This document shows positions 1,386 through 45,000 of a stretch of DNA of 64,000 nucleotides, piece by piece. Numbering within the stretch: the first letter of the stretch is position 1; each line of letters opens with the position of its first letter. The position numbers and the translations under genes are program-made. Source of the stretch: Octopus vulgaris (lineage: Eukaryota); assembly GCA_951406725.2 (NCBI GenBank), contig OX597819.1, forward strand, positions 131,750,001 to 131,814,000, written 5' to 3'. The notes beneath the pieces are model-generated. The model saw nothing but the letters and a program-made list of their open reading frames with translations, searched no databases and was not told the origin of the DNA.

Positions 1386-1415
1386 CAACAATAATTGGTG
1401 CCGAAAATTTGTCTT
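1386..1415 (-). CDS. Microexon 16, 30 nt: (E)DKFSAPIIV
   Basis: tttttttcttatcag|AAGACAAATTTTCGGCACCAATTATTGTTG|gtaggt; GCATG at +25..+29. Confidence 0.78.
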
Positions 1416-4400
1416 CTGATAAGAAAAAAAAGATATCTATATATATATGTATAAAAAGTGTCAGCTATTTTATACACACCACAAATTATTGTGAGCATAT
1501 TATATATATATAAACAACTTAAAATTTATAAATTTATTATAAGATTAAAATTTAATTGTAATGTTAACATTATTCCCTTTCTACGGCAAGTTTTACCATT
1601 CTGATATGGGTTGTATTGGTGAGCAAGACTGCATCTTACAATGCTTCTTCGTCCTTTATCATCTCACTTGTGATGGTCACCAAAGTTGCCATATCAGATT
1701 TCTTTTCTTGTGATCTATCTTTGCAACAGAAACAATTCACCCCACCTAGCATGTACAACTAATTAGGGCAGTCACCTGGTTATCAGGAATGTATATTCCG
1801 GGCCCACCGAATGAACACTGCTCACCCACCCAAAATGGTAAATTTTTCTTCCTAATAATTGTTCTTGGAGATAGAATGATAGAGTCTTGTTATACTTTGT
1901 TTCCAAATGTAATATATACACACCCTTGGAGGCGCAATGGCCCAGTGGTTAGGGCAGCGGACTCGCAGTCATAGGATCGCGGTTTCGATTCCCAGACCGG
2001 GCGTTGTGAGTGTTTATTGAGCGAAAACACCTAAAAGCTCCACGAGGCTCCGACAGGGGATGGTGGTGATCCCTGCTGTACTCTTTCACCACAACTTTCT
2101 CTCACTCTTACTTCCTGTTTCTGTTGTACCTGTATTTCAAAGGGCCGGCTTTGTCACTCTCTGTGTCATGCTGAATATCCCCGAGAACTACGTTAAGGGT
2201 ACACGTGTCTGTGGAGTGCTCAGCCACTTACACGTTAATTTCACGAGCAGGCTGTTCTGTTGATCGGATCAACCAGAACCCTCATCGTCGTAACCGACGG
2301 AGTGTTTCCATCCATATACCCACCCAGACTGATGTTGGAGTTGTCAGTAGAGAAAGAAATAGCTTCAAGTTTATATAATCTATAGTAAAGACAACAGTAA
2401 CAGATTCAACATAACGGACCCCAGAGATAACAACTCCCCCCCTCCATACATCACTCTCTCTCTCTCTCTGCAATAACTGTTGACACCAACAAGAAGCTGC
2501 TGTTATGCAACTGCTGTAGTATTTTTTATGCCCACTCACTACCACTGTTGTGCAGCATAAGATTCACAGAAATCTCAACCAAATGTCAACAAGAATAACA
2601 CTTGTCTAAACTTTCCATCTGCAGGTCATAGTCACAGCTGGAATTCTAAGTTTACCATTTAAGCAACAATACTTCACTACATCGAAAGAAACTTGGGCTC
2701 TCAGATTATTATTATGCAGTGAAGTGCATCTAAGTGAAGTGCACCACTTGTGCATTGTTTGCATGAAATTTAAAACAGTAAATTCTTGTTTTTCCTTCTT
2801 TCTTGTATTCCTAACAAAACCATTTTTTTTTTTAGAGATTACACCTTTATATGGCTGAAGCAGGAAGACCAAAAATGGCTTGAAAGTCATAATATGCCGG
2901 TAGGAAATAACATCACTAGGTGAGACAAGCTGACACTGAATTAACTTCGCTGACTGACAGGTGACGGTCGTTTAGAGAATGTGCGGGCTAAGACTACACA
3001 CCTTCATTGGTCAGTTAAAGTTGAGACAGTGTCACGTGACAACTTGCTGGGGCTGCCTGCTGGAGCCTAGTAGCAGGTATTTAAAGGGAAAAAATTTGAC
3101 AAGACAGTCAGTTGCCGGCTGACACTTGTTGACGCTTACACCAAAGAGGCCAGGGAACAGAAGAAAGAAGACACCTCCGAAAGGTGGGGGGGGCACCACA
3201 TCAAAACGGTAGAGGAGTACGAGCCGAAACTGGACGTGGTTCCTCCTGATGATGTCTTGAGCTAACTAGATCCTATAAAGGAGCTGTTGTGGTAGCAGAC
3301 CACGAAACACAGTTGTAATTCCTCCTTATTGTCCTGGAAACTAATTAACTAATTAGGAACTAGCAACACAAGTCTACCCTTCCAAGGATTTTCTCTGGTT
3401 GTTAACCATTCTAAAATACGACACCAGATCATCAGCATCCAGTCAGATAAGCAAACCAAACCTCTCTTGCAACACTATGAAGTATTAAGATTAAGAAGGA
3501 AGGTTTGAAGATGAAGCTATTTCCTAACCTATTTTCCCCAGGCTTCACAATAACTTTCCAGGAAAATGTATGCCCCCACCAGTGGTTGGGGAAAAAAACA
3601 ACTTTATTTTTAATATTTTACCACAATTATTTACTGTAAAAGACTATCATTAACTCTTTTATTAAGTATTGAGTATAAACAAAAAAAGTGCATTATTGAT
3701 TAAGAAAAAAAAGTGAACCTTGTGCCTGGTGACCACAGCACCATGCCCTGCCACAATTTTCTCAGGCCCCACGTTGGGAACCACTTCTTTAAAGGGTAAT
3801 TACAGTAAAACTAATTATTTTAATTCTAAACAACATCCTCTTGAAAGCCCCATTCCTGTAATAATGCTGTTACAGAACAATAAATTAACAGGGGAAGAGA
3901 GTAAAGTTTTCTCCCTTGCATTAGAGAGTTCCTTACTCCCTTCAAAATGAATGTGAACAAGGTTAGTATGAATCTTGTGACATCCTGTGTTTCAGGAGTA
4001 GTTGACCGACAGAGTCCCCAAATGCTATTAGGTTTTACAGGAAGTTAAGAGTCAATAGACAGTTATAATTTGAAGAAATAAAACTTGATTATTTTGCATC
4101 TTTTTGAATTTATAACAATCCTTGTAAACAACGTCATGATATAATGTTCAACAGAAATTATCACCAAACAGCATTCTACGTAAAAATTGCCAAACGTTTT
4201 CTCAGGAAAAATTAAAACTGATAAAAGTGATTGCAATGTATGATCGTTATAAAAAATAATTATCAATATTAATGCAAGCAATCGATATATTTCTGGTATT
4301 TATTTTATCAACCCCAGCCAGATTTAAACTAAAAAAAAGTAACTGAATTATATGATATTTAAAACCACAAACATAAATACATATATTTTGTAAAATGTTG

Positions 4401-7400
4401 TTAATTAATAAATATTATTGATTTATTGTTTTGGCATCAAAATTTCACTATCTTTGAATTATATCTAACTCTATAAAAAATTTCAATACTTTTCATTGAA
4501 AATATATTTGAAGTATTATTATTGCTATAAAAATTTATCAAAAGTTCAGTATGAGAAAATAGCTACATAGATTATTAATTGATATAAGTATTATTTAAGA
4601 AAACCTTTAAACAATACAGATAAGTTGGACAAAGTATGTAAAACGATGTCAATAAATAAAGACATGATGCTATATCACTCTATGTAGATTGTTTAATGCT
4701 TCAGTTATATCCCAGGAAAGTTTCCTTTAAGAAACATAACACACCAGAATGAAGTATGAACTACTGTCTTATTTTTGCTAAAGGAAATGATTCCCCAAAA
4801 TGTAAAAGAAGCATTCAACATAGAGTGATGTCTTGTCTCTGTCTTTATTCATTGACATCACCTGACAGATTTTGCCTAACTTCTCATCGGTATTGCTTAA
4901 AGGTCCGCTTAAAAATATTTCAAACAAATTACAAAACTTGTTTAATCTTTTAATCATACATAAAGGAAACCATTTAGTTTTTATTACATAACTCAAGACA
5001 AAATATAAGGCGGCATTTTTTTTTGTGAATCAAGAATTAATGTCTAATTTAACAGCAACATTGCAAACTGGGTTTTAACAAAATATTTTAGATTATTGTT
5101 TAGGATTAGATATGCTTAAATATGTAGCTTTATTTATATTTAGAAAATTACTATTTGTAAATCTCACAACAAGAGATATTCAGCAATAATACTTTGGAGT
5201 AAAAATTGTTTGCCAACATAACATGGCAGTCCTGGTTTAGGACAAATGTTGCTGTAATTTAGCCCCAGGAGACATCATCACCAGCTGGCGATACAACATG
5301 ATCTGTGTCCTTATATTTTCAAACAAGGCAATCTAGCACCCCAACTCAGCTCAAAACAATATCTGTGTATCATTTCCGGGTTATTTCCCTTCATCAGCAC
5401 AGAATAATTGTTCGGCTATTTATACTTAAATTATTTATATTTAAATGAAGATCTTTTGTAAACTGCATTTATAGATTTTGGGGTTGCAAAGTTTAAAGAG
5501 GTGTTTCAGTTGTATTTATTTTTCTGTGAGCTAATCAAACAGTATGAATCACTAGAAGCAAGTATGGTTATGAAATGATGAGGACTGTCTAGTTACGTAC
5601 CATCGATCTCAGTATCGCTGATCACTTCTTCAGCTGGAACAGAAATGGTACAGACTTCAGAAAAAATACAAAAATAAAAGACTTCTTTTTAGTTACAAAT
5701 AAACTATTAATTACCATCAAAGATGATTGCTTTAAACAGAGCAAAGTACAATTGTTTCGTCACTAGGAACACTAGAAACCTAGGGGAATAGAGTTGATTC
5801 AATAATAAACAAAAGTTGTGGTTTTTGAGGGTTTTTTTCCTAATTCAGTTTGATAAAGTTATAGAGTTTTTCACAGTTGATAACAGAAAAACAAACCAGA
5901 GAAAACTAGAACCTATAAAGATACTTAAAAGAGCTTTGGGATTCCTAAGACAAGAATTTGTGAGTAAACTTGGATAAGGGAATTCAAGAAAATGAAAGAG
6001 TTACAGAAGGAAGAAACTGAAAATATGGAGAAAAAAAAATTAAACGTTTTTAGTGATGGGCAAGATTCTTCAAAAAATGAGTTTTGTTTTATAGAGACAT
6101 TTAAATGAGGATCTCACAACAAATTTCAATCAGTTTTGTTTATGGAAGTCTAATAAATATTCCAGAAACCAATATGGACTACATTTTCCTTGTTACTGAT
6201 TACACTGCCATAAAAATAGCCTTTCTTTCAAGCAAAAGTCCAATAAAAGACATTGTCCAAAGCCATGTTTCAAGAAATCATAAAAATGCTAAGCATTGAA
6301 CATACTCTTCTCTGAAAGTTTTCCAGATCAAAATTAAAACTCTTATACAACATCCACCTTAAAAATTCTGTATTGTATGAAAGCTACAGGCTACAAATCC
6401 AGTGAAGTCATCAAACCTGTTTTTTATTTTTTTCTGTCTATTGAAAGTCAGCCTGAATAATGACATTTCTTTCCAAATATTTTCATAAACCAGTTATGAA
6501 TGACAAACTTTCAGAAGTAGGTCAGTGAAAAAGAAATATCTATTTAAAGAATTCTAAGAGAATCTAAGTTTTGTCAGGTTCTTGGAGAATTTATATTCTT
6601 CAAGTAGCAATTTGTTCAAACATTTCATAAATAACTTAACAGACTTAATTAAAGGAAATGAGAGAATAGACCCATTCCTCTCTCTCACACACACACATAC
6701 AAAGAGAAACTCTCAACCACACTTAATTCATAAACCTCTCCTAAAAGTGCTTATCATTTTCCTTCAAGACAATTTATTCCCGTCATAAACTCTACTGGAA
6801 GTAAAACAATACAACCCCTAAAACAGCATCAATATAGTTGTACTCTTATAGTTGCCTTCAAATTTTACCATAAAAGAAAACACTGAGATACAAGGCTTGG
6901 AAAGAAGCTACTGTAAAACTTGGCAGCAAGAATGAATATGGTAATTGTGAAATTGGATCACAACAGCACAAGAACAAACACCACAGCAATTAGAAATAAC
7001 AAAGTTGTAGTGAATTTAGCATCTAACGGCTGTTGTGTGTTAGATTATTCCAGAAGAACTTTCAGTGTAGCACCAAAACCAACGGCTTACCACAGACATA
7101 AGAGATTTGTTTCATGTGCATACTGACATCAAAATTTGGTAAAAGAGGGAACTTGGTGGAGCTATAAGACCAATGAGGTTTTAAAAAAGGACTTTGCTAC
7201 AGAAGGTAAATATGGTAAAGATCAAAATTATGATCGAGGTTGTTTGTAATAAACGATAGAGATCAGAAGTAAGATATTGTCAGAATTACATCAACGACAG
7301 GAAATAATTAAGATTTAAGGGGGGGGGGGGAATGACCGTACATTAATTAAAATATACAAGATTAAGTGATGAAGATTATCATATAACATCCAGTTACCTA

Positions 7401-10400
7401 CCATCGGGATCAATATCACTGACCACTTCTTCGACTGGAACAAAAACAGGAGATGCGTCAATAAATGGATAAATGAACAAATTTCTGAACACAGCTGATT
7501 AGTATCAAACCACAAAAATATTTCTGGATTAGTTTTTGAACAAAGCAAACGTTTGGCAATCGTTTCCAATAATTTCATCCATTTATGCAACAGAAATGAA
7601 GAGGGATTGCCTTAAAAAATTATGAAAGTAGAGAAAGTTCTACAACCCTAATGAAAGAAGACATTTCCTTTAAGATTGTACCACAATGGTGATATTTACA
7701 ATAGAAAACGGTTTATAGGGCTTCTTTTTTTTTTTTAGTTTTTCTCCAGTCAGTCATCATACTCAACAGAAACAAATAGTAATATTGAATTTTGAATATT
7801 AAATAAGTTCTACTACAAACAGATATGACCCCAAATTAACTGTTTATGAACAGCAGCTGCTGTGAACAATTATAAAGATATTTGAAGGTTCTAAAGTTGA
7901 AATAACATGCAAATCAACCAGAAGGTACCTACCCACTCCAACTGGAGGTGGTAAATCTTCTGTTAAAGTGAAACAAAAAATAAAAATAAGTAAATAACAT
8001 TGATATTTTAAAGAATGTATAATATTATTACACAATCATCATTTGAGTACCGAATTAGACACAGGACCTTGGTTATTCACACAAAAATATTCACCAGGTT
8101 AAATCACTTAAAAGCAGCTGTACATACACATACACGCACTAATATATATATATATATATATTTCTTTATTGCCCACAAGGGGCTAAACACAGAGGGGACA
8201 AACAAGGACAGACAAAGGGATTAAGTCGTTTTACATCGACCCCAGTGCGTAACTGGTACTTTATTTATCGACCCCGAAAGGATGAAAGGCAAAGTCGACC
8301 TCGGCGGAATATATATATATATATGTATATATCAACAATGTGTGCATTAGAATGGCAATGAAAAGCTATGAATGTTTCCTATGGTTATACAAAACAAATC
8401 TAATCTAATTTTGACAGTTCTGATCTTTTATTAAAAAGTTAAATTGGAATAAATGGCAACGATAGGCTGGAATCTCATGTAAACAAGAGTTTGCCTTAGA
8501 AAAACTTCCATTTCTAAAGAGATTTTAAAAATTATCAGAGATATCAACTAACTAAAGTGGCATATTTTGAAAAAAATGGTGAAGAAAGAGAGAATCAGGA
8601 ATAACTAGTTACCTACCATCAAAATCAATATCACTGACTTCTTCCACTGGAACAGAAACACGATGGAATTCAAACAAAGATACAATGGAATAATACACAT
8701 TTATGTCAAAGACTTATTAGTCTTTGCACCACAGCAATATTTCTAGCTTAATTTTGGACAAAACTTTATAATCTTTAATCCCCTCACTAACAACTATAGA
8801 ATAAAGTTTGATTTCTTTGACAAATTAAACTTTTATTAAATTTTATTTACAAAAAACAAACAAACTAATTAACTAAATTTCATACCATATTTAAAATCTT
8901 GCTTAGGGTTTATTCTCATAATAAGAAAGCTTTCTGCTCAACAGAAATCCATAGATTTTATAAAACTTTGCAAGGTGATTATTAGTAGAATAATTATCAC
9001 CAAAGAAAAAATACAAGAAATATTTCAAACAGTTTGTGCCTTAAACATCTTCTAAAATGATTGCTCAAAAGAAACTTCAACAAAAGGACATGATACAATA
9101 AAATAGAAAGGCTACATTACACATTTACACAGTTCTATTTGTAGGTCCTAACTATCTATAAAGAAATCTTTTCTTCAGAAAAATTTAGAGTTTAGCCGAG
9201 ATTTTATTCTAACTGATGATTGAAGCATTGATATGATCAATAAGAAATCTTTGCTATTTTATGCTAATATTTTGGTTGATGTAACTAAAGGATCATAGGA
9301 CTGAACTGAGATTTGTGAATTGATAGGATTGTACATCTTCAATGCACAATAATTCTTGAAAATGTCACTAATAACATTAACAAGTGAATATCAGTTTATT
9401 TCCTGACATGAAATCTTGACTATGCTGCTCGTTATTATAATAATGCGTTAAAAGAGAGTGCTTCCAAAGATAGGACTCATTATATATATTGAACAATGCT
9501 AATGATCATAAACTCAGTAGGAAAGAAATACTATATAGTATAATACTATATAGTATAATCCAAACTATAGTTTAAATGTTGGTCCAATGATGCCAAAAGT
9601 TTCATAAATTTTATAAATTAACATTTCCCCATAAACTGTTGATATTATAACATTAAAAATAATATTGTGGTGAGCTCCAGTTGCATTATAACAGCTTGGG
9701 CCGCTCCCTTAGCTATTATATAACTGAGAAAGCCTTGAAACATTAATGCAGCAAAGAACAAAACTCTATGTTTATGTGTGCTGTGTCTGGAAGCTAATTT
9801 GGGAGGGGGGGACTTTTTTTGAAAGCTGTTTTTTATTAGTAAAACCTTCCACAGTTAATCTCTATAGAATGGTGATGCCAGCAGCAAATATTTTTTTCTG
9901 TTTGATTCTGTTTCCTGTATTGTGTTGCATTGGGTCCTCGTTGTAAATGCAGGATCAACCAATGAGAAAGTGTCATTCCTGTTGAAGTCTGACACAACAG
10001 TTGAAGTCATGAAGTTTACAACGTCCGACCTTTACACTGAAATTTCTTTATTGCACAGGTTGTCTGTTCTGTTCTGCAAATCTTTAGTTTCATGTTGACC
10101 AGAACGATTTTCATTCCAGTATTTTTGTAATTTACTCTGACAGTGAGTTTATGGGGAGGCATGTTACATGTTCTGTTTTAAGACATATTCAGCCACTCTG
10201 TAACTCAGGTGCACTTGGTTCTTCTAGTGTGTGTGTGTAGTAGTAGTAGTAGTAGTAGTATACTACATAAGCTATATATGTGTTGGCTTTTGTTTTTTTA
10301 CTGAGTGCTCTATTGATTGCATCAACATAGGTGAATGTGTTGTTTGGTCAACTAATATAGATTAATCTGTAGAATAATCTAATAATCTCTTCAAGGCATC

Positions 10401-13400
10401 CATTATTAATTAATGTTTGTTTCACTTGTAACATTTCTTTATCACCATCATCATCATCACCATCATCTGTTTTCCATGCTGGCATGGATTGGACTGGTTG
10501 TCACAGATATTTTGCACAATCCATTTTGGGCACAATTTCTATGTGTGGGTGTCTTTTTTAACACCTACCACTCCACAGTATCTTTTGAATGTATTTTACT
10601 GTAGCACAAACATGAGTGAAGTCACCAATTCAATGTTTGTTTCACTCCACAGGTCGACAGTCCTACTCCAGTGCTGGGTGTCAGCAATGGTTGCAGTCAT
10701 TTATTTATGGGTGGGGACGGATCACTCTCGGTGGGTATGTAAAGGCATTTATGATTTTTGTGTATACTGAAGTCTTTTATGTGTCATTCCTTATCCTACA
10801 CTTATTTCCCAAAAGAGGAAATAGCTATTAGGCTAGAACTGTGTGTGATTGTAAATCTAAGAATGGAATTATTTCCAAGATCAACTTAAAGACCTGTTCT
10901 TCCCTATTTCTCTCTCTATAAATATATCATTGACATATCTGCTGTAAATGATGAAGTCTTGCTTAGGGATACTACAAATGAGGGCCTAGGGACAGAATCC
11001 ATGGAGCCACCTAGGAGTACAGATCATTATGAAGCTAAGCAAATCTTTATTGTTAACAATGGAAGTAAAATACAAATCTAAAATCAATTCTCAAAGATGG
11101 CATACACAAACTATGAACACCACCAGCAGCAAACCTTTGAATTATAAGCTGACGTTTGCTATTTTGTCCCTTCTAAGCAGTATTCCCAGAATTCTTTGAA
11201 TATATATATATATTGTGTCCTTTTCTGTAGAAGAGCGTAGGCTCGAAACATAAAAGACTTTTTCAATTCCTGAGCGTTATACTAATACATCTGTTTGCTT
11301 TCTACACCACCTGTCTTCGTCTTGTTTTTTTCATGAACTCTCCCCCTATATACATATATATATATATTCAAATATTCTTTGCTGTTTATAATTGCATACA
11401 ATATTTAGAGAAAAATTTAAATTTTAAATTCCTCTTCAAATATATTGTTTTATCCTTTGGGAGTGTGCAAAGTGACCAGTGGACATTCCTTCAGAAAACT
11501 ACAATATATATTTTGAATTGAGAAATGACAAGCTGAGTCAAGTGCTGATGAATATAATAGGCCTTAAATCGAAAAGGTTTTTTTAGGTAAAACTTGTCAT
11601 TAAACTAATAAGCTGTCTTATGTTACTTACAAAACAACTTACAAACAGAAAACCTTAAATACTAATCAAAGTTTTATTTGAGATAATTCTTAAGAATAGT
11701 TATAAAGACTCCCCATTTAAAACACTAAATTCTATTGTAATGCAGAAGACTCGGGTGTTTAGAGTAAACCTATATTTGTTGTATAAATATTGAGAGAGAG
11801 AAAAATGATAAAGATCAGGAAGAGAAATGACAAAACATGCAAATCAACTATGAGGTACCTACCCTCATCAATTGGAGGTGGTAAGTCTTCTAGTCATGTA
11901 AAATAAAAGTCAAAGATATAAATAGAATCGATTTGAATCAATGCCATAATATACATAGGAGTCTATCAATTCAATAGCAAAACAGACATTCCAGATTGTA
12001 TGTCGGACACATGAAAAAAAAGAGCCTAGTTTTAACAGCAACCAGGAAATTAGAAAACGGAAAATTGTAATCTGTAGAAAAGGACTTCATTGGAACAAGG
12101 AGTTTATAATCCCCTTAATTCATGGATATACATCAGAGACTATAAAGTCTTCAACATAAGAAGTTATGTACACACCTGAATGTGTGTTTCCACAGGTTTT
12201 TCTAGTAAACATGTAGTTTAAGCATATTCACACAGTAATCTTATGTGGCAGTGTTGTATTCTCGGAAAAAATTAAAATCCCTTTTATGTAACAATATTTA
12301 AGGTTTCCAATAGCAACGGGTTGGAAATCTGCTTCATCAAGTGTTCAGATTTAAATAAAAATCTCAACTTTCAAAAAATTATCCCAATCTATTAATGCCA
12401 ACATCTTAACTGACGAGCGTTTCACTTGGCTGTTAAGTTACAACATTTAATACAACCAGCTTTATAACAAATATTTTATACAATCAACATTTAATATAAC
12501 CGATGAAAAAAAATCCAGCCATTTTACTAAATGTGTTCAAATTCATTGAAACATCCAGACAGGAAATCAAGTTATCAGAGAGACCAAATAATGTGGTAGG
12601 TTAACAATATCATCCTACATTTCACTGAAAAATACAAAACTAAATGATCAGAACTATCATCTAGCGGTTAGTTTACCTACCCTCAACATCAACATCAACA
12701 TCACTGACCACTTCTTCCACTGGAACAGAAACAGGACAGAATTCAACATGGAATAATAATAATAATAATAATAATATACATTTATGTTAAAGACACTTTG
12801 TTAATTCTGGACAAAGCAAAGTTAGGATAATTATCTTCAATCCCCCTGACTAATAAATATAGAATAATGAATAACTAATGATAGATGGATTTAACTGGTC
12901 TGTCAGTCAATAAAAATCACAACTACAACAGCTGTACTCTCTAGCTGTCCCTAAAATAAGAAAATGGTGAAATATACCAAAATTCATTTTCAAGATAAAA
13001 GAACTTAAAAAATGAAAAAAAGTACATATGTTAAAAGTAATTTAAGTTCTTTGGTATTTAATATGATTTTACTTGAGAATACATAAGTGAGAGATGGGCT
13101 GCTACAAAGAGGATAGAACATTGATTGGCTGTGGCGCAAAGGGCCATGGAGGAATATCATTACGAGAACATATTCAAAATGAAATAATTTAAGATTGGAG
13201 CAAAGATTACAATGTGATTACAGAATACCAAAAGCACAAGTTCCGCTGGGCAGGACATGTTGCAGGGTTCCCAGACAAAAGGTGGACCTGTGCAGTTGCC
13301 AAGTGGTATACATGAGATAAAAAAAAAAAAAAGCCACCTGGAAGTCTACCACAATGGTGAGAAGACAATCTAGTTAAGCAATATGGTTCAAGATAAAAAA

Positions 13401-16400
13401 GAATGGCACAATCAAGACAGAATTGGAAGTGCATTGTGACCAGCGGTGTATAACAGCATCTGGAGGTCTGGTCAATACTGTGAATTATTAAAAAGTTAAA
13501 GCGAGTTTGAATTTGAATAAAATTAAAATTGAGCAGATTTGTAGTGAGTATTAACATGGAACACACTGTAGTCACCAGATGGCCATGCCTGGGTATGATA
13601 GTCATTCTTAACACTGGTTCGCTTTAATGTGATAGAAAAGTCAATTAATTTAATCCATCTTTTTGTAGTCATAACAAATTTATCTGAATCTATCAAAGTT
13701 GTTGGGTATTTCTAAGAGTGCCAGATGATGTATGAAAAAAAGCTGAAGCATGTGCGATCACACACAAACACAAATTTTGCAAGTAAACTTGCAAGTAGCA
13801 AATATTACAAACAGAAAGAATTTCTAAAAAAGTATGCCTCAAACAGAAATCCAAAAATTAACCATTTATGAATTGCTACAAAGATTGTCAAAAGTATTAA
13901 GAATTTTCTATTTAAATTGCAAAGAATTTATATATATATAAAGTTCTTGAAAAGAGAGTAAAGTGAAAAGAGCATGCAAATCAACCAGAAGGCAGGTACC
14001 TACCCACTCCAACTGGAGGTGGTAAATCTTCTATTAATGTAAAACAAAAATTAAAAATCAATAATAATATATTAAAGAATGTATAATATATTGTGATTAC
14101 ACTATCATCATATATGTAATATATTACATTGTCAGATATATGATATTATTATTATTATTATTACATTGTCAACATTTGAGTAGTGAAATAGAGTCAAGAC
14201 TTTAGAAGTGCATAAAAGTACATTTTATCAACAGCATATCAATTAATAAAGTACAATGGTATAGTGAAAAAGTATAGAATATAATTAATTACAAAGATGA
14301 TTTCAAAAGCACAATTATTGATAAAAGAAACTAAAAGATTTAAACAAACGAAAGCTTTCATCACTTTCTTCTGGCAGTTTTAGTGTTCTTAAAGTATGAA
14401 CCCTAAAGATAAGAAGGACAGACTAAAGGTGGCTGACACCAGACCACTGATGGCATTTAAGATGACAAGCTACAGGGGGAGCACTGTGGATCAGTTGGTT
14501 GGCCTGTAGATCAGGGAATTCAGTCTTAAAGATTGGAGCAGATCAAAGTTTGGTAACAACATTCAAATGGCAATAATTGTAATTTTTTAGTCATATTATC
14601 AGGACCCAGAAGTTGTGTGTCCACATCCTCAGTGACCAGAGGGACAGAAAACAGCTTCATGGGCAACAAAGATAAAACTGGAATGATGCTATCAAGAACT
14701 AAATAGGGAAATGAAGCCTGGCAGAGTACTGAGACCACAACATGTGGTAACAAATGATGGTTGTGTTGGAGACCTTCAACACCCACTCACACGAATGGAT
14801 ACATCCCTCCCAGCCAGGTCTTTTCTCTAAAAGTCCAAGTTGAACTTCACTCATGGTGGAAAAAAAAACCCATGGGCACAGAAAATCCTTTGAATATTTT
14901 TTTTTTTTTTAAGCAGAAAGATATTCACAATAATGTCTATTCTGCACTTGAGTTTTAAAGAGATTTCAGATTAACAAGAAAACCAGGTTTATAATTTGTC
15001 ATCTATTGAAGTGAGGAATGTCTAAGTGACCTCAAGCTTTCAGACAAGAATCCAATGAATTCTTTTGTCTAAACTGAACAACATTCATTGAAGAACACTG
15101 TCAGGGATAAACTAATCCCTAATCCACCAAGATCTACTAAAAGAAAACTTGTACACAAAAATTAGCAACAAACAGTAGTCCTCTCTAACAGTATTGGGTC
15201 ATACCATAAATAATGTGGGTTTTTTGTACTTTTATTTTTCAAAATAAAGATAAATTTTTAAAAATCTAAAATATACTCTCCTTCATTTTCTACATTGCTC
15301 TTCCATGTATCTGGTAGACTTGCAAGGCTCCTTTTCCAAAATTCACTTGTCCGTCACAAAAAATACTCCTCCAGTACTATTCTGACCTTGTCTACAGAAT
15401 TCATATTTTTTCCATCCAAATGATTTTGATGACTGTCAAATAAATGATAGTCAGATGGGGCAATGTTCAGTGAATATGGTGGGTGGAGCACCTTTTCCCA
15501 TTCAAACTGCTCCAGCCTTTGGAATGTCATCCTCATTGTATGTGGCCAAGCATTATCCTGATAGAAGAACACCTTTCATCTTGAAACCAAAGATGGTTGT
15601 TTTTCTTCCAGTGCTGACTTAAACTGCTCAAAGTAGATCTTAGTTATCATTTGGTTTGGGTTTAAAAGTTTAAAGTGCACTAAACCTTTCATATTCCTCC
15701 AAACAGATAACAACACCTTACGTGGGTGAAAACTTTCTTTAGCCTGGGGTGCCAGTGTTTTTCCTTTCCCTACCCACTGTCTTTGGCACTTGACATTTTT
15801 ATAGAGAAACCATTTCTTGTCACCAGTCACTAATCGGTCCACAAGAGGTTCATTGATGAGACATGACAGCAAAGAAGAGCACACATTCACTCTCTGCATG
15901 CGATTAGACTGGGAAAGTTTGTGAGGAACTCATTGACCCAATTTGCTGATTTTTCTGATGGCACGCAGGTGTTGCTGAATAGTTTGAATGATCAAATCCA
16001 AGCTTCTCTACAGTTACAATGGGATCTTGTTCCACCAGGGTTTGCAGGGCGTCCTCATCAAACTTTACAGATCTTCCAGAATGAAGATCGTCTTCTAGGC
16101 TGTAGTTTCTAGTTCAGAATTTCTGGAACCACCATTGACACTGGCTTATGCTTATTGTTCCATCTCCATTATTCTGCATTAATATTCCTCACAGCTTTTG
16201 CTGCATTGTTGCCTTTATTGAAATCATAAAACAAAATATGCTGAATATGTTCCTTTGTCACTTCCATTATAGCTTTGAAAAAAAATAACTATTAAAATTG
16301 ATCTGCACTCTTCAAAACTTGCACTAAAACCAAGGGCAAGGTAAAATTACTATCTGCTTTTATAGCAAGCTGATTCAGGTAGTTTAACCCGTCCCCTCCA

Positions 16401-28400: not shown

Positions 28401-31400
28401 CTAAATGCCTTGATTGGATGAATGAATGATGACAGCTTTCAGATGCCCTTTGCCAACACAAATCATTTTCATTGAGATAAGTTGGGGCAGAGTGTGTATC
28501 ATGAATAGTTGCTACTAGAAGTAATGACTTCACAGCCAGGGTTGCTATGTGAACGTGTGTGTGTGTGTGTGTGCATTAACAACAGTTAATGATAACCTCT
28601 TTTGTTTTTTGAGGACTTCACATTGAACTTGACCTTTTGTTGATCTCATCAGAGACAAAAGTAACTTGGCTGGCTGTAAGGGGAGGCAACCGGCATGGAA
28701 TCTAATGCCACAGGGTATTTTTGTTCAACACACCAATTCTGCCATTTCATTCTTGACATACTCACACACGCACACACACAATTATATGGGATGCAGGTTT
28801 TCTTTTAGACATATATTGAAAACAACGATTTATCAAGGTTTTAAAAGAATATTTTGTGGGAACATTATCCTCAGTAACATTTGAATATTTTTATTGGTAA
28901 CATTAGCATTTTTAAATACATTATCAATGTTTCTAGATCCTCAGTGTGAAAGGATATTGGTAAGTGTTGCAGGTAACACTAATGTTATTCGTGGAGATAT
29001 TAAAGCTGTAATCTGAATTTTAATCCTTACGGCATTAGTCAGCTGTTTTGGTTTGTGTTTACCTATTTCAGTGTTGTGTTGTGATAAGGGCACTGCTTCC
29101 ATCATTAATCATTTATAAGCATCACAATTCCTTCATATGCGTGTGTGTGTGTGTGTGTGTGTGTGTGGAGATTTTGTAGTGCACAACTGTGTTGTCAACT
29201 GATAATTTCTTGTCTAGTTTTAGGATTTTTACATTTCTAATTTTATAAAAGAGAAAAACTTTGAAAAAGCAAATAAAAAACTAGTTTAACGAATTAGAGG
29301 TACATACCGGAAGTGATTTGAACTGCTTCAATTTTCTCTTCTACCGAGAGAGGTAAAATTTATGAAATTAACAAAATTATTATGAATAAATAGATTACAT
29401 AAATACAATTTTTCCTTTTCATTTTGGAATATATATAAAACAATCCATTAAGAAGCAGGAAGCCATGATTAAATATCCTGTTTATATTTTTTTCTTAACC
29501 CTTTCGTTACTGTATTTATTTTGAGCTGTTCTGTGTTTCTTTCAATTACTTTAAATATAACAAAAGAATTTAGTTATCATTCAGCTAGTGTTAGGAACAT
29601 AAATTGTGACTAAGGAAGATTTTAACTGAAAACTTATGGAAACAAGACATTTGTATTCAGAGCCAGAACTGGTTTCAACTGGGTTGGTAACGAAAGGGTT
29701 AAACCCATTTTCTGCAGAGACAGTTTTAAAGGATTTCAATGATATTCACAGATATACTTCTACAAGTAAATATTATTTTCAGTTATCTCTACTAGACATT
29801 TCTTTTCTTTCCACTCTTCAAGAGATGAATTGTCATCCTTCTAAAGTTTAGTTCTGGTCATGGTTCTAATCAGAGAATATGTGGCAGGTCACCTTCTTTG
29901 AATGCCTGACACACAACGCCCCCAAGAGACTGTTTTACAGCAAACTAGCGAAAGGCATGCGAATGCAAGGTGCTTCGAGGATACACTCAGGGCCTCACTG
30001 AAGAGCTTTTAAGATCAACCCCCGACACCTGCAAAATGCAAACATAAAACTACCCAGCAGAGGTGTGACCCCCTATGAACAGAACAGGATTGCTGAGGCC
30101 CAAAGAAAACACTAACTGCACAAGTCCAAAGCCAATTCTTTGCCTTGGGCCCAAACAGACCACTGGTCCTCTTTCAAAATATTCAACCTGTCTCAGCTGC
30201 TAAGCTGTTAAGCTTTTGGTTTGTTGATGTATGTTGAAATTGGTTTGAGAGTAGGGAGAGGAGCATGCAGATAGCATCAAAGAGTGATTGATTCTGGGAA
30301 TATTTTTATCTTTCTCTGGCAACAAATGCATATTTGCAGTTACAAAAAGATTATCTTATTACTTCATTAAATACAGTGAAATCTCTGCTTAGCTGAGGAC
30401 ATCCAATGTGACAGAAACTTCTCCATGGTTATCTCCCATTTTTACCAAAAGACTCAAAATAATATTAGTCAGTGTCTAATAATTTCTAGTTAGATTTTTA
30501 TGTTTCTTAAATTAGTTAACCCTAAGTTTATACCAGCTGATTAGTCGCAATAGTTGCTCATGGGTTGTAGATAGTAAGTCCAGCACCAATAATTGGTGAA
30601 CTTCATACCCTGCAAGTTCAGAAGAGCTTATACAACAATGAAATCTCTCACAACAGATTCTTAACAGAAGAAATGAAATCATTAGGCTTCATCTACATAC
30701 AGAATACTTCAAATGAGAACACTCCCTAACGAGGAGGTCGGTTCAGATGAGATCTTAATAAATAGCTTGAAAATATAATAGCAGAGGCCATGATATTGTA
30801 TTAACTTCTCCAATCAACACAACTTAGTGGCAAAAACTGTTTAATAACATCAAATGATAAGAAAACATTTGATATCCAATCTACTCTAATAATCACAAAG
30901 ACAGAATAAGAGTCACTTGTAATATGGAGACTTTCCACCAACGACACAATCTCACATCTTGCTTAGCAAAAGACAGGAGAGAAATTTAGAAAAATCCCAT
31001 TCAACATGGCTCGACCAAATACACATACGCAACTGTGACACCAGAGCATAATATGGTCCCTTAACCCATTGGACCTTGTCCAACTGTCTAACCTATATCA
31101 TCATGGAAGGCAGACATAAAATGATGAGGAGGTAAAATTTAACCATCAAAGACTCCACCAAAATCAATATCCTACCATCGTTGGCTATTTATACCAACTC
31201 AAGACAATAAAAACTAGATAAGATCACAACCACATTAAAGCTTAACGAACATTCCACTTCTACAATCAGTACTAATCGTTAAAACAATTATCAGTTATTT
31301 ATTTTTAATATCCTACTTTTCACTACACAAATGGTATCTAGCTACTGTGCTGAATCCTTGCACTCTCCTACTATAAATTAGATGCAGTCAATACAAAATC

Positions 31401-34400: not shown

Positions 34401-34833
34401 GTTTGCCACTTTATTCAATGGAAATATTAAGAAATTTGGTTTCTTGCTATTTGTGATAAGTATAGTTTCTTAATCTGAAGTCTTGGAGAATTTTAATGAC
34501 ATGGTAAATAAATATGGATAATAATAAAAGGGGGTCTTTAATGAATACAGATTAATTAAAACACCATGCATAGCAGCAGTATACTACTACCTACCCTCAG
34601 TTACTGGTGGTGGTGGTGGTGGTAGTTTGCTTTCTGGTGATGGTGGTGGTGGTGGTGGTTACATGATCAAAGCAACCAAGACGTGGAGAGGAGATTATTA
34701 AAATGATGTTTAATAAAAAGAACAAAGAAAACAAAAAAACAAAGATATTCACTAAGAAAATAATCATCTGGTCAAATCAATAGTTTTCCATTAAGACAAC
34801 AAGATACATTCTTTTATATAATAATATCGTAAC

Positions 34834-35405: not shown

Positions 35406-35436
<31 letters not shown>

Positions 35437-38400
35437 GAAGAGAGCAGAGATACAAAGATTGTGTGTGTGTGTTTGTAATTGAAATTCCATAAATATGTTT
35501 TAACTCCCTAACCAATTCCAGACAAGTTAGAAAGAAAACAGATTTGAAACATTTCGTTTGCTACATCAACTGCAAGATTCATATGCAGAAATGTTGACAG
35601 TTCTACAGTTCTACAGTTGGATGCCTGTCGACGCTAAAATGGTCTTTAATCAAATCTGAAACTTTTAAACAGCAAAAATAAGAAAAAAAATTAATTAAAA
35701 TTGATGAAATAATTCTTTAGATAAATAATCTAAATAAAGTAGGAAATAAAAGACATGCTAAACAGTTGTGTTTACCTACCGTAAACAATAGTTTGTGGAA
35801 TTTCATGGTCTAATTCAATTTAAAGAAAGAAAAAAAGGATTAGTGAGGTTTCAATATATTTACTCAAGATTCATTTGTACCATTTCTTTCTAATTCTATT
35901 TAAACAACCACAAATTTCCTAAATACAAAACATCTTTAAGAACAAACAATAAAAATTATAAAAGATTTTACCATATTCTCAGATATTTTGTAACTTATTC
36001 GCAAAAAAAAAAAAAAAAAAACGAAACTAAACTGAAAATAGAATTTTTCTTTCTTATGAAAAAGCTGAGGAAGAAAATTTTGATTAGGGTTAAAAAAAAA
36101 AAATGACTAAAATATTTGTTTCTAACAAAAATAAATAAATAAATAAACAAAACAAATTATATAAGACACTCAAAAGAAAAGGGACAATATTTATGCCATT
36201 TTGGAAGCCCTTTAAGGCTGAAGTGGAAAGAACAGAACAATTTAAATAAAAATACAAAAGAAAAAAAACAGCTGAAATAAAGTCTTTGGTAATTCCGTAA
36301 CTTCCCCAATGGAATTGTCACATAATTCTTCACATAACTCAATTTCTTATGTAATTCCAACTTAATTATCAATCACCAACAATCAAAAGATTCAATTTCA
36401 CAAAATATTTCTAAAACATTTCCATTCTATATTTCACTAAACAATTCTCTGAATCAGTTTGAGAAGAACTAAACCAATGCTACCCAACAGCAACAACAGA
36501 CCAATAAGTCTTTTTTGTATTTTTTATTCCATACATAATTGTCAACACTTCCTCTCAACAAACCTTTTCAGAAATTCGTTAACACCTGGTAAGAACACTA
36601 TTTCACGCAAATGCCTATCTTTAATAACACTTACATTTTCATATTTGCAATTATAATTAATAAAGCCAAACCCATTTGTTAAGACATAAAACTAAACCTG
36701 CCCTTAACTTTCATTCAAGCTCTGGTTGGTTTACACCAACACTTTTTGCAGTTCCTTAGGATCCATTTATTCCAACTGACCACACAACACTTGCACAAAC
36801 TCTTTCTCATTGGCACTGAATGCCAAAGAAACCCCAAATCCTAAACTTAATACAAATACAAAAACAAAAAATTACAAGTTTTCACATTAAATTTATCTTT
36901 TGAAATATAAATGCACTAAATTATCAAGAAAGAAACTAAAATTACAAATATTGAAAAACATTGTCAACATTTGATTGACAGGTCTATCGACATTTGCAGC
37001 AAATATTAACAAAACAAAACAAAAAAGTGATGCCACTGATTTTTTAATGTTTTTATTAAACTTCATTATTTCGAAAAGACTTGCCAAATGATAGAAATGA
37101 AGCAGTTGTTTAATTCTGTTATTGAAATTGTGGAGAGAGGAAGAGCATTAAATAATAGATTTGCACGAAATGTGGTTGCTTCTAATTAATGTGAATTAAG
37201 GGAGATTTAATTATTAAATAATAACTGATTGTGTCTAATTGAAAGTAAATCTGAGAGAGAGTATAATATCTAAATTATTGTAAGGAGACAAAAGGGTCGG
37301 TAGTGCCATGTGTGTAATTAGAATACAGTGGACAAAATGGGGCTATAAAATCTGTTTGGAGGCAGAAAAAACTAGATCCCGCTTCCTCCCTTTGTCTGGA
37401 AGATGGGCAGACATCTGCCAGCATCTGTCCAATGTACTCAGTTACACACACACACACAACACTGGCCTAAAATTAGTACTGCTACAAGAAACTATGACAC
37501 AGACACTCACTCACTCTCTCTCTCTCCAGAATAAATATTAGCATAACAATAATTAATTGAAAGAACTTTCAGTGTGAGAACATAAAATATTGATAAGCAG
37601 CTAAAAGTGATCAGAACAATGGTTTTAAAAAGTAACTCAATAAAAACAATGGCTGCTATTAAAAAAAAACAAAGGAAAACAAAAAAAATCTATTTCAAGG
37701 TAAAAATATTAGCAATATTTTACATTTGCAAATAACAAGAAAAAAAAAAGATATTATTTAAACTACTTTTGTGCATTACTACAGGAACACTTCTCCCCCA
37801 CCCACCCTCTTTTGCCAATCTAATTAAATTTCATAACAATAATTATAATAAAATTTCAACAGGAGAACTACGAAAAATTAACATTAATATATTTTTTTAA
37901 TGTTACGATCTCCAAGACAAAGGAATGTTTTTGTTTACCAAAATTTGGTTGAAAATAATATTAGAATTTACAAGAAGCAAAAACCCTTAAAACAAAATGC
38001 ATTCCCCCCATGACCACCACCACTTTATATCTAAACCCTTTCATCAGGCTTTAATCCCATCATAGACTTGAAAAATATACCTTAAAACTATTTTCTACAT
38101 ATATATGGGTACACATAGGCACGCATGTGTGTTTGGGACGTGTGTACATACTTTACATAAAATAACAAAGCAGATATTGTTTGTGATTGCATATTCTTTT
38201 ATCTGTTTCGGCTGAAAGGTTGTGGCCATGCTGTTGCAAACATCTATGAGCTGGAAGCTGGTCCCGTGTTTTCACCAGTTGTTTAAGATGCCTGAGGAAT
38301 CGAGACACCTTTTTGGGACTCGCACTCTTTGACTCAGAGCAACATCAAAGATTGACAACTGGAGGAAGAAAGGGATGGCTCTCGTTTACAGCTAAGCAGA

Positions 38401-41980: not shown

Positions 41981-42026
<46 letters not shown>

Positions 42027-45000
42027 GACAGGCTTCTTTCAGTTTCCGTCTACCAAGGCTTTGGTCGGCCCGGGGCTATAGCAGAAGACACTTGCCCAAG
42101 ATGCCATGCAGTGGGACTGAACCCGGAACCATGTGGTTGGTTAGCAAGCTACTTACCACACGGCCACTCCTGCGCCTAATATTCATTTCTCTCATAAATA
42201 AATTTATACTTAACCCTTTCGTTACTGTATTTATTTTGAGATGCTCTGTGTTTCTTTCAATTACTTTAAATATAACAAAAGAATTTAGTAAAATAACTTA
42301 GTTATCATTAAGCTAGTGTTAGGAACGTAAATTGTGACTAAGGTTTGGTGGAAGATTTTAATTCGAAACCTATGAAAACAAGACATTTTACCACAGAGCC
42401 AGAGCCGGTTTTGGCCGGGTTAGTAACAAAAGGGTTAAAGACACATTTCTATAACAAAATATCGAGAAATTTTTTTATGTGAAATACAGAAGAATATACA
42501 AAACTCATACTTGCTGAACGGGTTTAGGCAAAATATCAATAGAAACGAACAGACGTATTTCACCACCATAGAAATAGCTTAGAGATAAGTTTAATTCTGA
42601 ATAAAAAGTAAGTGAAATGATAGAGCCATAAAAAGAGCCGAGAATAACTGAACTGACAAAAAATGAAAAAGTATTTAAAACAGCAAAAAGATTAATAGTT
42701 ACCAAGAGAATTACAATAAAGACTCACAAGAATATCAATGACTAAGCCAGCCATGTTAGTTTGTGATGATTGAGGTTAGAGTAAAAGAGTTGATGGAACC
42801 AAGACCTAAAATGGTTTGATGTTAGTTCCAATGAAGAATGAAGTGTTGAGAGTCAAATCTGTTTAAAAAAAAAAAAACAACTACATGAAATGAATCGTAT
42901 TTTCTTTTTTTTTTAATCTGAAAAAATGATGTGATTGAGAAGAGGCAATAAATCAAAACTGAAAACCAAAACGTCATGCAGGTTGTCAGAGACAGAGAAT
43001 ACCTACCACGCATCACAGTGGTTTCCACTTTGACTTCTAGAGTAAGAAAAGTAATATTATAGGTAAGTATGGAAACACTGAAAATGAAATTTTGGATTTT
43101 AAAACAAACAAACAAACAAAAAAGAAAGAAAAAATACTTTAAAAATCATAATTTCAATATTGTTCATTTTCTGAAAATGTTCAGGTTTCTTTGTACAAAC
43201 ATTTGACTTGATCCAGTATTTTACTTGTAATTTATTTTATCAATTCATCAAAAGATGAAAATAAAATCGACAGCAACCAAAATTAAGGCATTAAAATAGC
43301 TGCAATTATTAACAAAAAACATTTATAAGGTTTCATCATTGCAAGAATATATACTGACTTATTATAACAATTATTAACATGAACATTTATAAAGTTTTGT
43401 AAATTCAGCAAATATATTGAATTATTATATAAACAGCAATTATTTACACAAAACATTTAAAGTTCCATCAATTGAAAAAAATATATTGAATTTATTATAT
43501 GACAACATTTAATTTAATTCTGCACCTAAAGAGAAAAAACACACAAACAAGAAAAAAAAAATATTCAAGATTACCATAAGAGAATGAAATGTTTTGGCAT
43601 TGTATATATAAAAGTTGGTATTATCTTTAAACGGTAGAAATAATAACCGGAACCAAGAGGATTAATAATTCCAATGGCTTTATAACTCTTGCTTCGATCA
43701 AATGATCAATTTCTGATCAATGATTTCTGATCGAGCAGATGTCAATCTTTCTGCTACAAGCAAATCAAGTTTGGAACCACAGAGAGCAGTAACTGTTTGA
43801 CTTGTTAAAAATAACAGTCAAGTCTCCTTTAAATTACACATGCACAACAAATAGCTTAATGTAGTCCTAAATTTAGCAGGTGTAATAATAAGACTGAATG
43901 GTCATAAGTGGAAGGCTTTTAATCCAATGTCAGTTCAAGCGGAACCGAAATGGAACTAAACGAGAAGCCAAACGACATTTCCTCTCATTATATTGAACTT
44001 AGCAGAGATTCTTGTTAATTTTGAATCCAGGCTCAGATATTACAGGGAATAAAAATAGAATATCTCTATGGTAACTAACAGCTCTAAGAAGTTTAAACGA
44101 TAAAGGAAACAATCCAAATCATTGAATTTAGTTAATCCTTTTCATACCAACCCACCTGAGACCACCACCCCTGATTCTATGATACAAACTTCTAGTTTTC
44201 AAGTGATCTAAAAACCTTCCTCAAAAATTGTTAATTTATGTCCCCCAACAACAACTTAATAACTACAAAGGTATTTTACTAAATTTTCTCCTTTCTATGC
44301 ACACAGCCCCCCCTCCCCTTTCATTTGTTGTCTCAAGATTTTTACAATATCTCATTATTATTATTAGACTATAATGAGAGTATTTCTATAAATAGGAGTA
44401 GAAACTTGAACTCAAGACCTGTCAATGTTTGTATCTTCACAATATTCAAAGCAATGAGCTGCCAAACACTTCCTTATTCACAATGAGGTGACCATGCACT
44501 CAAGTTTTGGACCTCAAATAGAGCTCACCTTCCACTGAGCAAATTTGGGATCTAAAGAGATTCTATGATCGTCCAATCTTTTTGTTGGGCATTGCCTATC
44601 TGGGACTACATTAGCAAATGTTTCCTTTCCTTTTCAAGACAAACGTTTGCCATTTGAAGAAGATTTAGCTGCTCTTTCTAGGAAGTACTGGTTAACCTAG
44701 TTTAGCGGAGTGTGATGTCACGTCAGCTGACGCATTGAACAGGTGCTATGGCTCCAGTGATGAAGTACAACGTCTCTGGCACGCATGATTGCACACTGCA
44801 CCTATTTTAGTATTTTGAACTTGCTTGTGGATAGCAGTGTCTAGGCATGGAGATCAGATTATTTTCATTGAAAGGCCCGGTCAGTTCTTAAATATCTAAA
44901 GGCTTACACACTGACTGCTACTAATAATAAACTTACTATCTACAGTGCTCAGGTGCACCACTGCAGCTCTCTGTCAGGTATTTCAGCTGTCATTCATAGA

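What the first reader, a model, noticed from the sequence alone, without database searches (positions are those of the whole stretch)
1386..43036. Hidden array of 16 frame-preserving microexons: a candidate combinatorial isoform generator
Seen: 16 segments of 27-39 nt on the minus strand. Each has an AG acceptor, a GTANGT donor, length divisible by 3, phase 1-1, no stop, and G as the last base. Every junction codon is therefore GNN, so no combination of skipping can shift frame or create a stop (up to 2^16 combinations). Full inclusion adds 498 nt (166 aa) after ..SEAPLSP: EVKVETTVMR DHEIPQTIVY ESKLPPPPPPVTE EEKIEAVQITS EECPLPDII EEEIQTTYRK AENLPPPSFM VEEVVNDADIE EDLPPPVGV VEEVVSDVDVDVE EDLPPPIDE VEEVSDIDFD EDLPPPVGV VEEVVSDIDPD AEEVISDTEID EDKFSAPIIV. 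Known analogies are schistosome micro-exon genes (MEGs) and titin PEVK exon arrays. Inference: a splicing-tuned acidic/proline disordered linker in a cephalopod gene, which ORF-based annotation would miss. The array may continue past the window start.
Basis: partly seen in the sequence, partly recalled or inferred. Interest (0 to 1): 0.95.

Follow-up and report, generated by a model that had tools for sequence, protein, structure and literature searches.

The report
Octopus microexon array in nucleosidase linker
An octopus gene for a conserved, probably ATP-cleaving enzyme carries 18 tiny in-frame exons that can add an adjustable acidic spacer between its domains; the exons are already in database gene models for a close relative, but their regulation and purpose are untested.

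Summary
All 16 segments are real minus-strand, phase-1 microexons (scan: 17 hits, chance mean 0.29).

They are not hidden. Octopus sinensis RefSeq models (LOC115212809) contain all 18, although this assembly's own models keep only two.

The host is a protostome-wide protein: N-domain, winged helix and a nucleosidase domain closest to immune Cap17-type PNPs. It is probably the CG12065/H14E04.2 family. The array inserts up to about 190 acidic, Pro/Val-rich residues into the linker before the winged helix.

Ten of 18 exons have an Rbfox-type GCATG 18-33 nt after the donor (control 10 of 283). Other molluscs have one or two optional inserts here; cuttlefish-like transcripts carry an unrelated modular insert of 411-476 residues.

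The 2^16 claim is overstated. Models look like an on/off block with skipping confined mostly to the middle, and 9 exons are invariant in 18 long models. No reads were examined.

Best reading: a tissue-switched, length-tunable acidic spacer grown by exon duplication. New variant of a known kind.

The parts
54086..54197 (-). Constitutive coding exon, N-terminal domain of the host protein
45454..45573 (-). Constitutive exon U (120 nt), last exon before the array, ends in phase 1
43007..43036 (-). Microexon m1, 30 nt; GCATG at +28; also used alone with m18 in short models
35780..35809 (-). Microexon m2, 30 nt; GCATG at +22
34595..34633 (-). Microexon m3, 39 nt, polyproline; GCATG at +26
29308..29340 (-). 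Microexon m4, 33 nt; no GCATG
27034..27063 (-). Microexon m5, 30 nt (27 nt from the tandem acceptor); skipped in 2 of 18 models
26705..26734 (-).
20671..20700 (-). Microexon m7, 30 nt; skipped in 2 of 18 models; GCATG copies upstream only
19575..19604 (-). Microexon m8, 30 nt; GCATG at +23
16741..16773 (-). Microexon m9, 33 nt, duplicate family A; present in 8 of 18 models
14004..14030 (-). Microexon m10, 27 nt, duplicate family B, identical to m14; GCATG at +27
12681..12719 (-). Microexon m11, 39 nt, family A; present in 13 of 18 models
11863..11889 (-). Microexon m12, 27 nt, family B; tandem acceptor; GCATG at +23; present in 11 of 18 models
8617..8646 (-). Microexon m13, 30 nt, family A; present in 12 of 18 models
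7933..7959 (-). Microexon m14, 27 nt, family B; GCATG at +23
7402..7434 (-). Microexon m15, 33 nt, family A
5601..5633 (-). Microexon m16, 33 nt, family A
1386..1436 (-). Microexon m17: 30 nt (1386-1415) or 51 nt (1386-1436) from an upstream acceptor; GCATG at +25. m18 (15 nt) and the exons for the winged helix and nucleosidase lie beyond the window start

Best explanation
The array is a splicing-switched, modular acidic spacer in a conserved protostome enzyme. SHOWN: 18 symmetric phase-1 microexons sit between the exons for the N-terminal domain and the winged helix; including them adds up to about 190 acidic Glu/Val/Pro/Asp-rich residues without touching the folded domains; part of the array arose by duplication of exon-plus-flank units. 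INFERRED: by default exon U joins the downstream exon (with or without m1/m18), giving a compact 573-594 aa protein. In cells with an Rbfox-type factor (neurons or muscle), binding to GCATG just after the donors switches the block on, and partial skipping in the middle plus tandem acceptors tunes length and charge. The spacer then loosens the coupling between the N-terminal domain and the winged-helix/nucleosidase module, changing the activity, partners or location of a probable Cap17-clade adenine-nucleotide nucleosidase. Selection acts on frame, length and charge more than on exact sequence.
For: Exon reality: (18 of 18 O. sinensis models decompose exactly into these modules with no residue left over; an O. 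bimaculoides model holds seven modules, six identical). Block pattern: the 8 short models have none, m18, or m1+m18, while the long ones hold at least 12 of 18. GCATG within +7..+50 of 10 of 18 donors, all starting at +18 to +33, against 10 of 283 pseudo-donors (Fisher p 4e-9), 8 of 12 after collapsing duplicates (p 1.5e-8), and 0 of 8 constitutive donors; it is the top 5-mer downstream. Downstream TGCATG marks RBFOX-promoted microexons in human brain, muscle and heart (PMC4317164, passages). Insertion point is the least confident loop of the fold model, residues 159-163. Duplications: 79-93% identical exon-plus-flank blocks. Similar composition, unrelated sequence in the cuttlefish-like insert: both 51% P/E/V/K, net charge -48 in 177 aa and -70 in 471 aa, best BLASTP E 1.3. 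Enzyme: MTAN/PNP fold Z 23.5, rmsd 3.1, 223 aligned; E264 in 53 of 54, E512 in 47 of 54, D536 in 54 of 54; nearest non-family relatives include PNP-NB-ARC-TPR and PNP-EAD1 proteins.
Against: No reads were laid, so tissue, inclusion level and phasing are unmeasured. RefSeq models of this kind chain short-read junctions and over-represent long forms (own knowledge); only 18 O. sinensis proteins were seen of 51 in the clusters. 8 of 18 exons lack the downstream motif, and 3 of those 8 are still present in all 18 models, so the motif does not predict inclusion well (6 of 10 motif-bearing exons are invariant). No octopus Rbfox binding was tested. Enzyme activity is untested, the MTAN Glu-Met pair before E512 is replaced by Asp-Thr/Ser, and no tree was built. 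No function of the spacer is shown; the only model of the long form was uninformative (mean pLDDT 31.9).
Confidence: 0.55

Rival explanations
1. Near-neutral expansion. An old molluscan optional exon sat in a tolerant loop; copies with their splice signals and GCATG were duplicated and kept because they preserve the frame. The insert and its variants have no tuned function.
For: Two families of recent duplicates account for 8 of 18 exons. Most homologues have no insert or one under 30 aa. A paralogue carries a whole Methyltransf_FA domain at the same linker, so the site tolerates large insertions. Octopus and cuttlefish-like inserts share no detectable sequence.
Against: All 18 exons keep frame and have no stop; GCATG keeps a narrow position in 8 of 12 unrelated units; six of seven modules are identical in O. 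bimaculoides; m18 is conserved with one substitution in the cuttlefish-like proteins; two lineages hold large inserts of similar composition.
Confidence: 0.25
2. The long form is a muscle structural or elastic isoform, with the insert working like titin or projectin PEVK, or as an acidic calcium- or filament-binding tract like the troponin T N-terminus.
For: 51% P/E/V/K in both lineages; many short symmetric exons; Rbfox also acts in muscle; polyproline in m3.
Against: No Ig or Fn3 domains, a 570-aa globular core with an enzyme fold; lysine is scarce in the octopus insert; no tissue data.
Confidence: 0.11
3. A free combinatorial diversifier of an immune sensor, like schistosome MEGs or Dscam: thousands of variants alter recognition by a Z-nucleic-acid-triggered ATP nucleosidase.
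For: The host family was proposed as an immune Zalpha-like plus Cap17-like PNP protein (10.1101/2023.01.24.525353, passages); top winged-helix fold hit is ZBP1 (Z 11.4, rmsd 1.9, 64 aligned); two 12-aa modules occur in all four combinations in cuttlefish-like transcripts and two modules do so in chiton models.
Against: 9 of 18 exons invariant in long models; modules are low-complexity and conserved between species; the winged helix has no conserved Asn or Tyr in its recognition helix and a median net charge of -3; ZBP1 is tied with generic winged helices; no signal peptide is evident at the N-terminus (by inspection).
Confidence: 0.06
4. The segments are cryptic or rarely used exons and the long protein is not made in meaningful amounts.
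For: The three models on this assembly and the Argonauta model lack m2-m17; a search for short proteins matching the insert found none among 8000 scored candidates; no reads examined.
Against: 17 hits against 0.29 expected; exact match to models in two other octopus species; full-length cuttlefish-like proteins with long inserts on 3.2-3.7 kb contigs from sequencing-run assemblies.
Confidence: 0.03

Closest known systems
Arthropod/nematode 'Zalpha-like + Cap17-like PNP' proteins, D. melanogaster CG12065 and C. elegans H14E04.2 (10.1101/2023.01.24.525353)
   Same: Winged helix followed by a PNP_UDP_1 domain closest to NLR-associated PNPs; full-length homologues in Caenorhabditis brenneri (33% over 603 columns, E 6e-84) and insects. 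The worm gene has a developmentally regulated in-frame cassette exon (PMC2265522) and the fly gene a regulated alternative event (PMC4274639).
   Different: Those two sequences were not aligned here, so orthology is inferred. No large linker insert was seen in the nematode or arthropod homologues; the paper passages read do not mention molluscs or microexons.
RBFOX-promoted alternatively spliced microexons (PMC4317164)
   Same: Short frame-preserving exons with (T)GCATG just downstream of the donor.
   Different: Here 18 lie in tandem over 49 kb in one linker of one gene; Rbfox control is inferred from motif only.
Fast skeletal troponin T alternative exons 4-8 (PMC2447309, abstract and reference list)
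   Same: A run of small same-phase alternative exons spliced in combinations; that they encode a variable acidic stretch is recalled.
   Different: Five or six exons at a protein terminus in a sarcomeric protein, against 18 (about 40 inferred in cuttlefish-like forms) between domains of an enzyme-fold protein.
Schistosome micro-exon genes, MEGs (10.1101/2023.06.21.545858)
   Same: 10-20 very short exons, mostly multiples of 3, separated by long introns, alternatively spliced in the centre.
   Different: MEGs are short secreted proteins made mostly of microexons and specific to Schistosomatidae; here microexons make at most a quarter of a conserved multi-domain protein with no evident signal peptide.
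Titin/projectin PEVK exon arrays (recalled)
   Same: Short symmetric duplicated exons, P/E/V-rich, length set by splicing.
   Different: No Ig/Fn3 scaffold, little lysine in octopus, strongly acidic, no evidence of a mechanical role.
eMIC/Srrm4-dependent neural microexons (PMC8797185)
   Same: Size range and frame preservation.
   Different: UGC near the acceptor, part of the eMIC code, is absent in 18 of 18 at -30..-4.

Membership tests
CG12065/H14E04.2 winged-helix + Cap17-like PNP family | Winged-helix domain followed by PNP_UDP_1 domain | tested here: met
   HTH_69 in 54 of 54 and PNP_UDP_1 in 33 of 54 members at E<=0.1; folds
CG12065/H14E04.2 winged-helix + Cap17-like PNP family | Orthology to the named fly and worm proteins | tested here: inconclusive
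   Full-length C. brenneri homologue, E 6e-84, and insect homologues; the two named sequences were not in hand; the gene name H14E04.2 was first recalled, then found
Cap17/DtcC-clade ATP nucleosidases | PNP domain closer to NLR/defence-associated PNPs than to housekeeping MTAN/PNP | tested here: met
   By score only, no tree: profile hits to two PNP-NB-ARC(-TPR) proteins and a PNP-EAD1 protein at E 1e-40 to 1e-47, among 16 hits scanned; 32% over 300 aa to one; best housekeeping MTAN E 0.003; PADLOC PN-superfamily effector E 5e-7
Cap17/DtcC-clade ATP nucleosidases | Catalytic acids of the MTAN fold retained | tested here: met
   D536 54 of 54, E264 53 of 54, E512 47 of 54; E512 and D536 aligned to MTAN; the match of E264 to MTAN Glu12 is inferred from position
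Cap17/DtcC-clade ATP nucleosidases | Releases adenine from ATP/dATP | not testable with these tools
   Needs an enzyme assay
Canonical Zalpha domain | Winged-helix fold like ZBP1/ADAR1 Zalpha | tested here: met
   ZBP1 Z 11.4, PKZ Z 10.8, tied with other winged helices at Z 11.2-10
Canonical Zalpha domain | Conserved Asn and Tyr in helix 3, Pro and Trp in the wing (PMC11293857) | tested here: not met
   No conserved Asn or Tyr in columns 203-215; wing aromatic is F 26, W 15, Y 7 of 54; median net charge -3
Schistosome MEG | Series of symmetric microexons with long introns | tested here: met
Schistosome MEG | Short secreted protein encoded mostly by microexons, with signal peptide, restricted to schistosomes | tested here: not met
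   Up to 188 of 766 aa; acidic hydrophilic N-terminus (by inspection, no predictor run); family is protostome-wide
Titin-type PEVK segment | P/E/V/K-dominated spring within an Ig/Fn3 giant protein (definition recalled) | tested here: not met
   51% P/E/V/K; only HTH_69 and PNP_UDP_1 in Pfam
RBFOX-regulated microexons | (T)GCATG enriched just downstream of the donor | tested here: met
   10 of 18 against 10 of 283
RBFOX-regulated microexons | Tissue-specific inclusion that depends on Rbfox | not testable with these tools
   No read-level or knockdown data obtained
eMIC/Srrm4 neural microexons | UGC motif close to the 3' splice site (PMC8797185) | tested here: not met
   0 of 18 at -30..-4; other eMIC features (branch point, UCUC tracts) not tested

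The most novel reading that the evidence does not exclude
Coleoid cephalopods use an Rbfox-switched microexon array as a tissue-specific regulator of an animal ATP-destroying immune effector: the spliced-in polyanionic spacer acts as a safety catch or sensitivity dial on a Cap17-type ATP nucleosidase in neurons or muscle, and octopods and decapodiforms expanded it independently (18 and about 40 exons) from one old molluscan microexon site.
Probability: 0.12. Interest if true: 0.87.

Novelty: new variant of a known kind. Interest (0 to 1): 0.6.

Why it matters
It gives a concrete, testable case of how a microexon array is born: an optional exon site seen across molluscs grew by exon-plus-flank duplication into 18 exons in octopus and, by inference, about 40 in cuttlefish-like species. 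A general survey reported no major departure in octopus splicing from other invertebrates (PMC9699675, passages), so gene-specific arrays like this would be exceptions worth finding. The host is an uncharacterised animal member of a recently described ATP-nucleosidase clade; natural short and long isoforms offer a direct way to ask how such an enzyme is held in check. If the expansion is neutral, it remains a useful annotation fix for this assembly.

Tried and rejected
Sequencing runs: 24 listed, 19 holding half or more of the words, none on record as RNA ('no RNA holder listed'); no reads were laid, so this is no evidence either way. Search for short proteins matching the insert: none among 8000 scored. 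Long-read octopus annotation (PMC9699675 data S1, 218 MB) could not be opened; the two readable supplements and the SPLASH supplement do not name the gene. The journal version of the nucleosidase paper is not held and its preprint Table S6 was not seen; it could settle family membership. Single-sequence fold of the long isoform was uninformative. N-terminal domain: no usable Atlas hit, barely tested by the fold searches; fold unknown. Pfam z-alpha was not among the first 25 of 34 families listed. Genome-wide donor+TGCATG pattern was dominated by simple repeats in the listed rows (1747 matches, control 1045) and was dropped. Rfam: 0 matches. Earlier-findings look-ups: nothing in 3 of 3. Literature: no paper named the locus or PF22979; microexon+cephalopod gave 2 papers, neither on this gene by passages or abstract start; searches listed no description of the array (listings only). 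Rejected: chance ORF-like hits 10569-10598 and 48437-48451; eMIC-type control; MEG, titin-PEVK and canonical Zalpha membership.


Full report
OBSERVATION. With tighter limits the count was 17 against 0, and 100 local Markov shuffles gave a mean of 0.29 and a maximum of 2. The window is G000:C6:131750001-131814000. In 364 kb around it no similar cluster occurs. Mapping related proteins back showed a 17th in-window exon at 26705-26734 with a GTGCGT donor, an 18th of 15 nt 6.3 kb past the window start, and the next constitutive exon 12 kb past it. A relaxed scan found five weak extra candidates, none in any model seen. The 17 in-window exons total 531 nt, 177 aa.

HOST GENE. The 120-nt exon upstream matches proteins labelled Octopus vulgaris and O. 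sinensis LOC115212809 at 100%. The protein has an N-terminal domain of unknown fold, a winged helix (PF22979) and a phosphorylase-like domain (PF01048, below its cut-off). Named homologues come from molluscs, annelids, nemerteans, a bryozoan, a brachiopod, a rotifer, flatworms, nematodes, a nematomorph, a priapulid, a tardigrade and arthropods. I saw no deuterostome or cnidarian among the named rows but did not test absence. A model from 54 sequences (mean pLDDT 83.3) puts the insertion point in its least confident internal loop, residues 159-163. The C-terminal domain has the MTA/SAH nucleosidase fold (Z 23.5, rmsd 3.1, 223 aligned); the winged helix scores best with ZBP1 Zalpha (Z 11.4) but is tied with generic winged helices. 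Three acidic positions matching the MTAN active site are conserved (E264 53 of 54, E512 47 of 54, D536 54 of 54). By score the domain is far closer to NLR-type PNPs (E 1e-40 to 1e-47) than to housekeeping MTAN (E 0.003); no tree was built. A preprint (10.1101/2023.01.24.525353, passages) names fly CG12065 and worm H14E04.2 as Zalpha-like plus Cap17-like PNP proteins and shows ATP nucleosidase activity for a fungal and a sponge domain, not for these. A C. brenneri protein aligns over the full length (33%, E 6e-84), so I infer the same family; the named sequences were not compared. Canonical Zalpha residues (PMC11293857, passages) are missing: no conserved Asn or Tyr in helix 3 and a median net charge of -3.

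ARE THE EXONS USED? No reads were examined. The evidence is from gene models and from proteins called on sequencing-run contigs. O. sinensis isoform numbers reach X48; I saw 18 of the 51 proteins in those clusters. All 18 decompose exactly into the modules, each with a different pattern; 4 are ambiguous because m10 and m14 are identical. Nine exons (m1-m4, m6, m8, m15-m17) are in all 18. m5 and m7 are in 16, m9 in 8, m11 in 13, m12 in 11, m13 in 12, m18 in 15. The 14 unambiguous models hold 8 distinct skipping junctions. Tandem acceptors at m5, m6 and m12 and a 51-nt form of m17 add variants. The eight short models (three on this assembly, which are not independent, and five O. bimaculoides entries) have no module, m18, or m1+m18. 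One O. bimaculoides model holds seven modules, six identical. The pattern is therefore block off or block on, with limited skipping. Such models chain short-read junctions and favour long forms (own knowledge), so they neither prove nor bound true combinatorics.

EVOLUTION. Chiton, scallop, oyster, mussel, clam and snail homologues carry optional 7-19 aa inserts at the same junction; chiton models show two modules in all four combinations. Unnamed transcript-derived proteins that cluster with a cuttlefish-labelled member have inserts of 0, 5, 8, 23 and 411-476 aa. Their long inserts differ mostly by 11-12 aa blocks, two of which occur in all four combinations, and 16 of 17 gaps (not independent) can start with a GNN-coded residue, as phase-1 G-ending exons require. 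About 40 microexons are thus inferred there; the genomic structure was not seen. Octopus and cuttlefish-like inserts share no detectable sequence (best E 1.3) apart from m18, but both are 51% P/E/V/K and acidic. In octopus, m9/11/13/15/16 and m10/12/14 are duplicate families with 79-93% identical exon-plus-flank blocks. A paralogue carries a Methyltransf_FA domain at the same linker.

REGULATION. GCATG begins 18-33 nt after the donor of 10 of 18 microexons, against 0 of 8 constitutive donors within +50 and 10 of 283 pseudo-donors (Fisher p 4e-9; 8 of 12 after collapsing duplicates, p 1.5e-8). I first noticed it by eye; it is also the top downstream 5-mer. This is the signature of RBFOX-promoted microexons in human brain, muscle and heart (PMC4317164, passages). 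The UGC motif of eMIC-dependent exons (PMC8797185, passages) is absent in 18 of 18. Against: 8 exons lack GCATG, and 3 of these are still in all 18 models. The worm gene has a regulated in-frame cassette exon (PMC2265522 and PMC3025544, table passages) and the fly gene a regulated event (PMC4274639, passages); their positions were not seen.

MECHANISM. Most likely (0.55): a tissue-switched, length- and charge-tunable acidic spacer that alters coupling between the N-terminal domain and the winged-helix/nucleosidase module. Exon structure, insertion site, duplication and motif enrichment are shown; Rbfox control, tissue, enzyme activity and spacer function are inferred. Rivals: near-neutral expansion in a tolerant loop (0.25), a PEVK- or troponin-like muscle role (0.11), a free immune diversifier (0.06), negligible use (0.03).

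COMPARISON AND NOVELTY. It works like the troponin T alternative exon run (PMC2447309, abstract and references), titin PEVK arrays (recalled) and schistosome MEGs (10.1101/2023.06.21.545858, passages), but fails membership in MEG, PEVK and canonical Zalpha. The exons are already in RefSeq models of a sister species. Searches of the held literature found no description of the array or the locus; most subscription journals are not held. PMC9699675 (passages, two supplements searched, data S1 unreadable) reports no major splicing departure in octopus, and its long-read annotation bears directly on the combinatorial claim. PMC11363564 (passages) and the PMC10370119 supplement added nothing. Verdict: a real feature, a new variant of a known kind, interest 0.6.

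Noticed in passing
G000:C6, about 26.6 kb beyond the window end (window-scale 90648-90662, minus strand): A further 15-nt phase-1 optional microexon near the N-terminus of the same gene; cuttlefish-like proteins have a matching optional 5-aa module. No GCATG in the first 57 nt after its donor.
   Followed up: partly
L033 = G000:C16:45822662-45826381: One paralogue in this genome (43% to the last exon); it is 55% identical to the chiton paralogue that carries a Methyltransf_FA domain at the same linker.
   Followed up: partly
window 20777-20789 region (77-89 nt upstream of m7, minus strand): Four overlapping GCATG copies upstream of m7, the only microexon with upstream copies; upstream Rbfox sites are usually repressive (recalled) and m7 is skipped in 2 of 18 models.
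   Followed up: no
window 50066-50713: 27-bp tandem array, 24 copies, 97% matches, inside an intron of the host gene.
   Followed up: no
window 15576-15929, minus strand: Fragment of a DDE transposase (Pfam Transposase_1, E 5e-15) in the intron between m9 and m10.
   Followed up: partly
window about 1927-2304 and 56146-56510: Dispersed repeat of about 380 nt, 93% identical between the two copies, with a third copy outside the window.
   Followed up: no
P0141, P0157 (arthropod homologues): Internal duplications of parts of the protein in two entries; may be annotation artefacts.
   Followed up: no
P0012 and P0055: The cuttlefish genome annotation splits this gene into an N-terminal and a C-terminal entry exactly at the array junction, both on a 976,558-base contig, as expected if a long microexon array defeated the annotation.
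   Followed up: no
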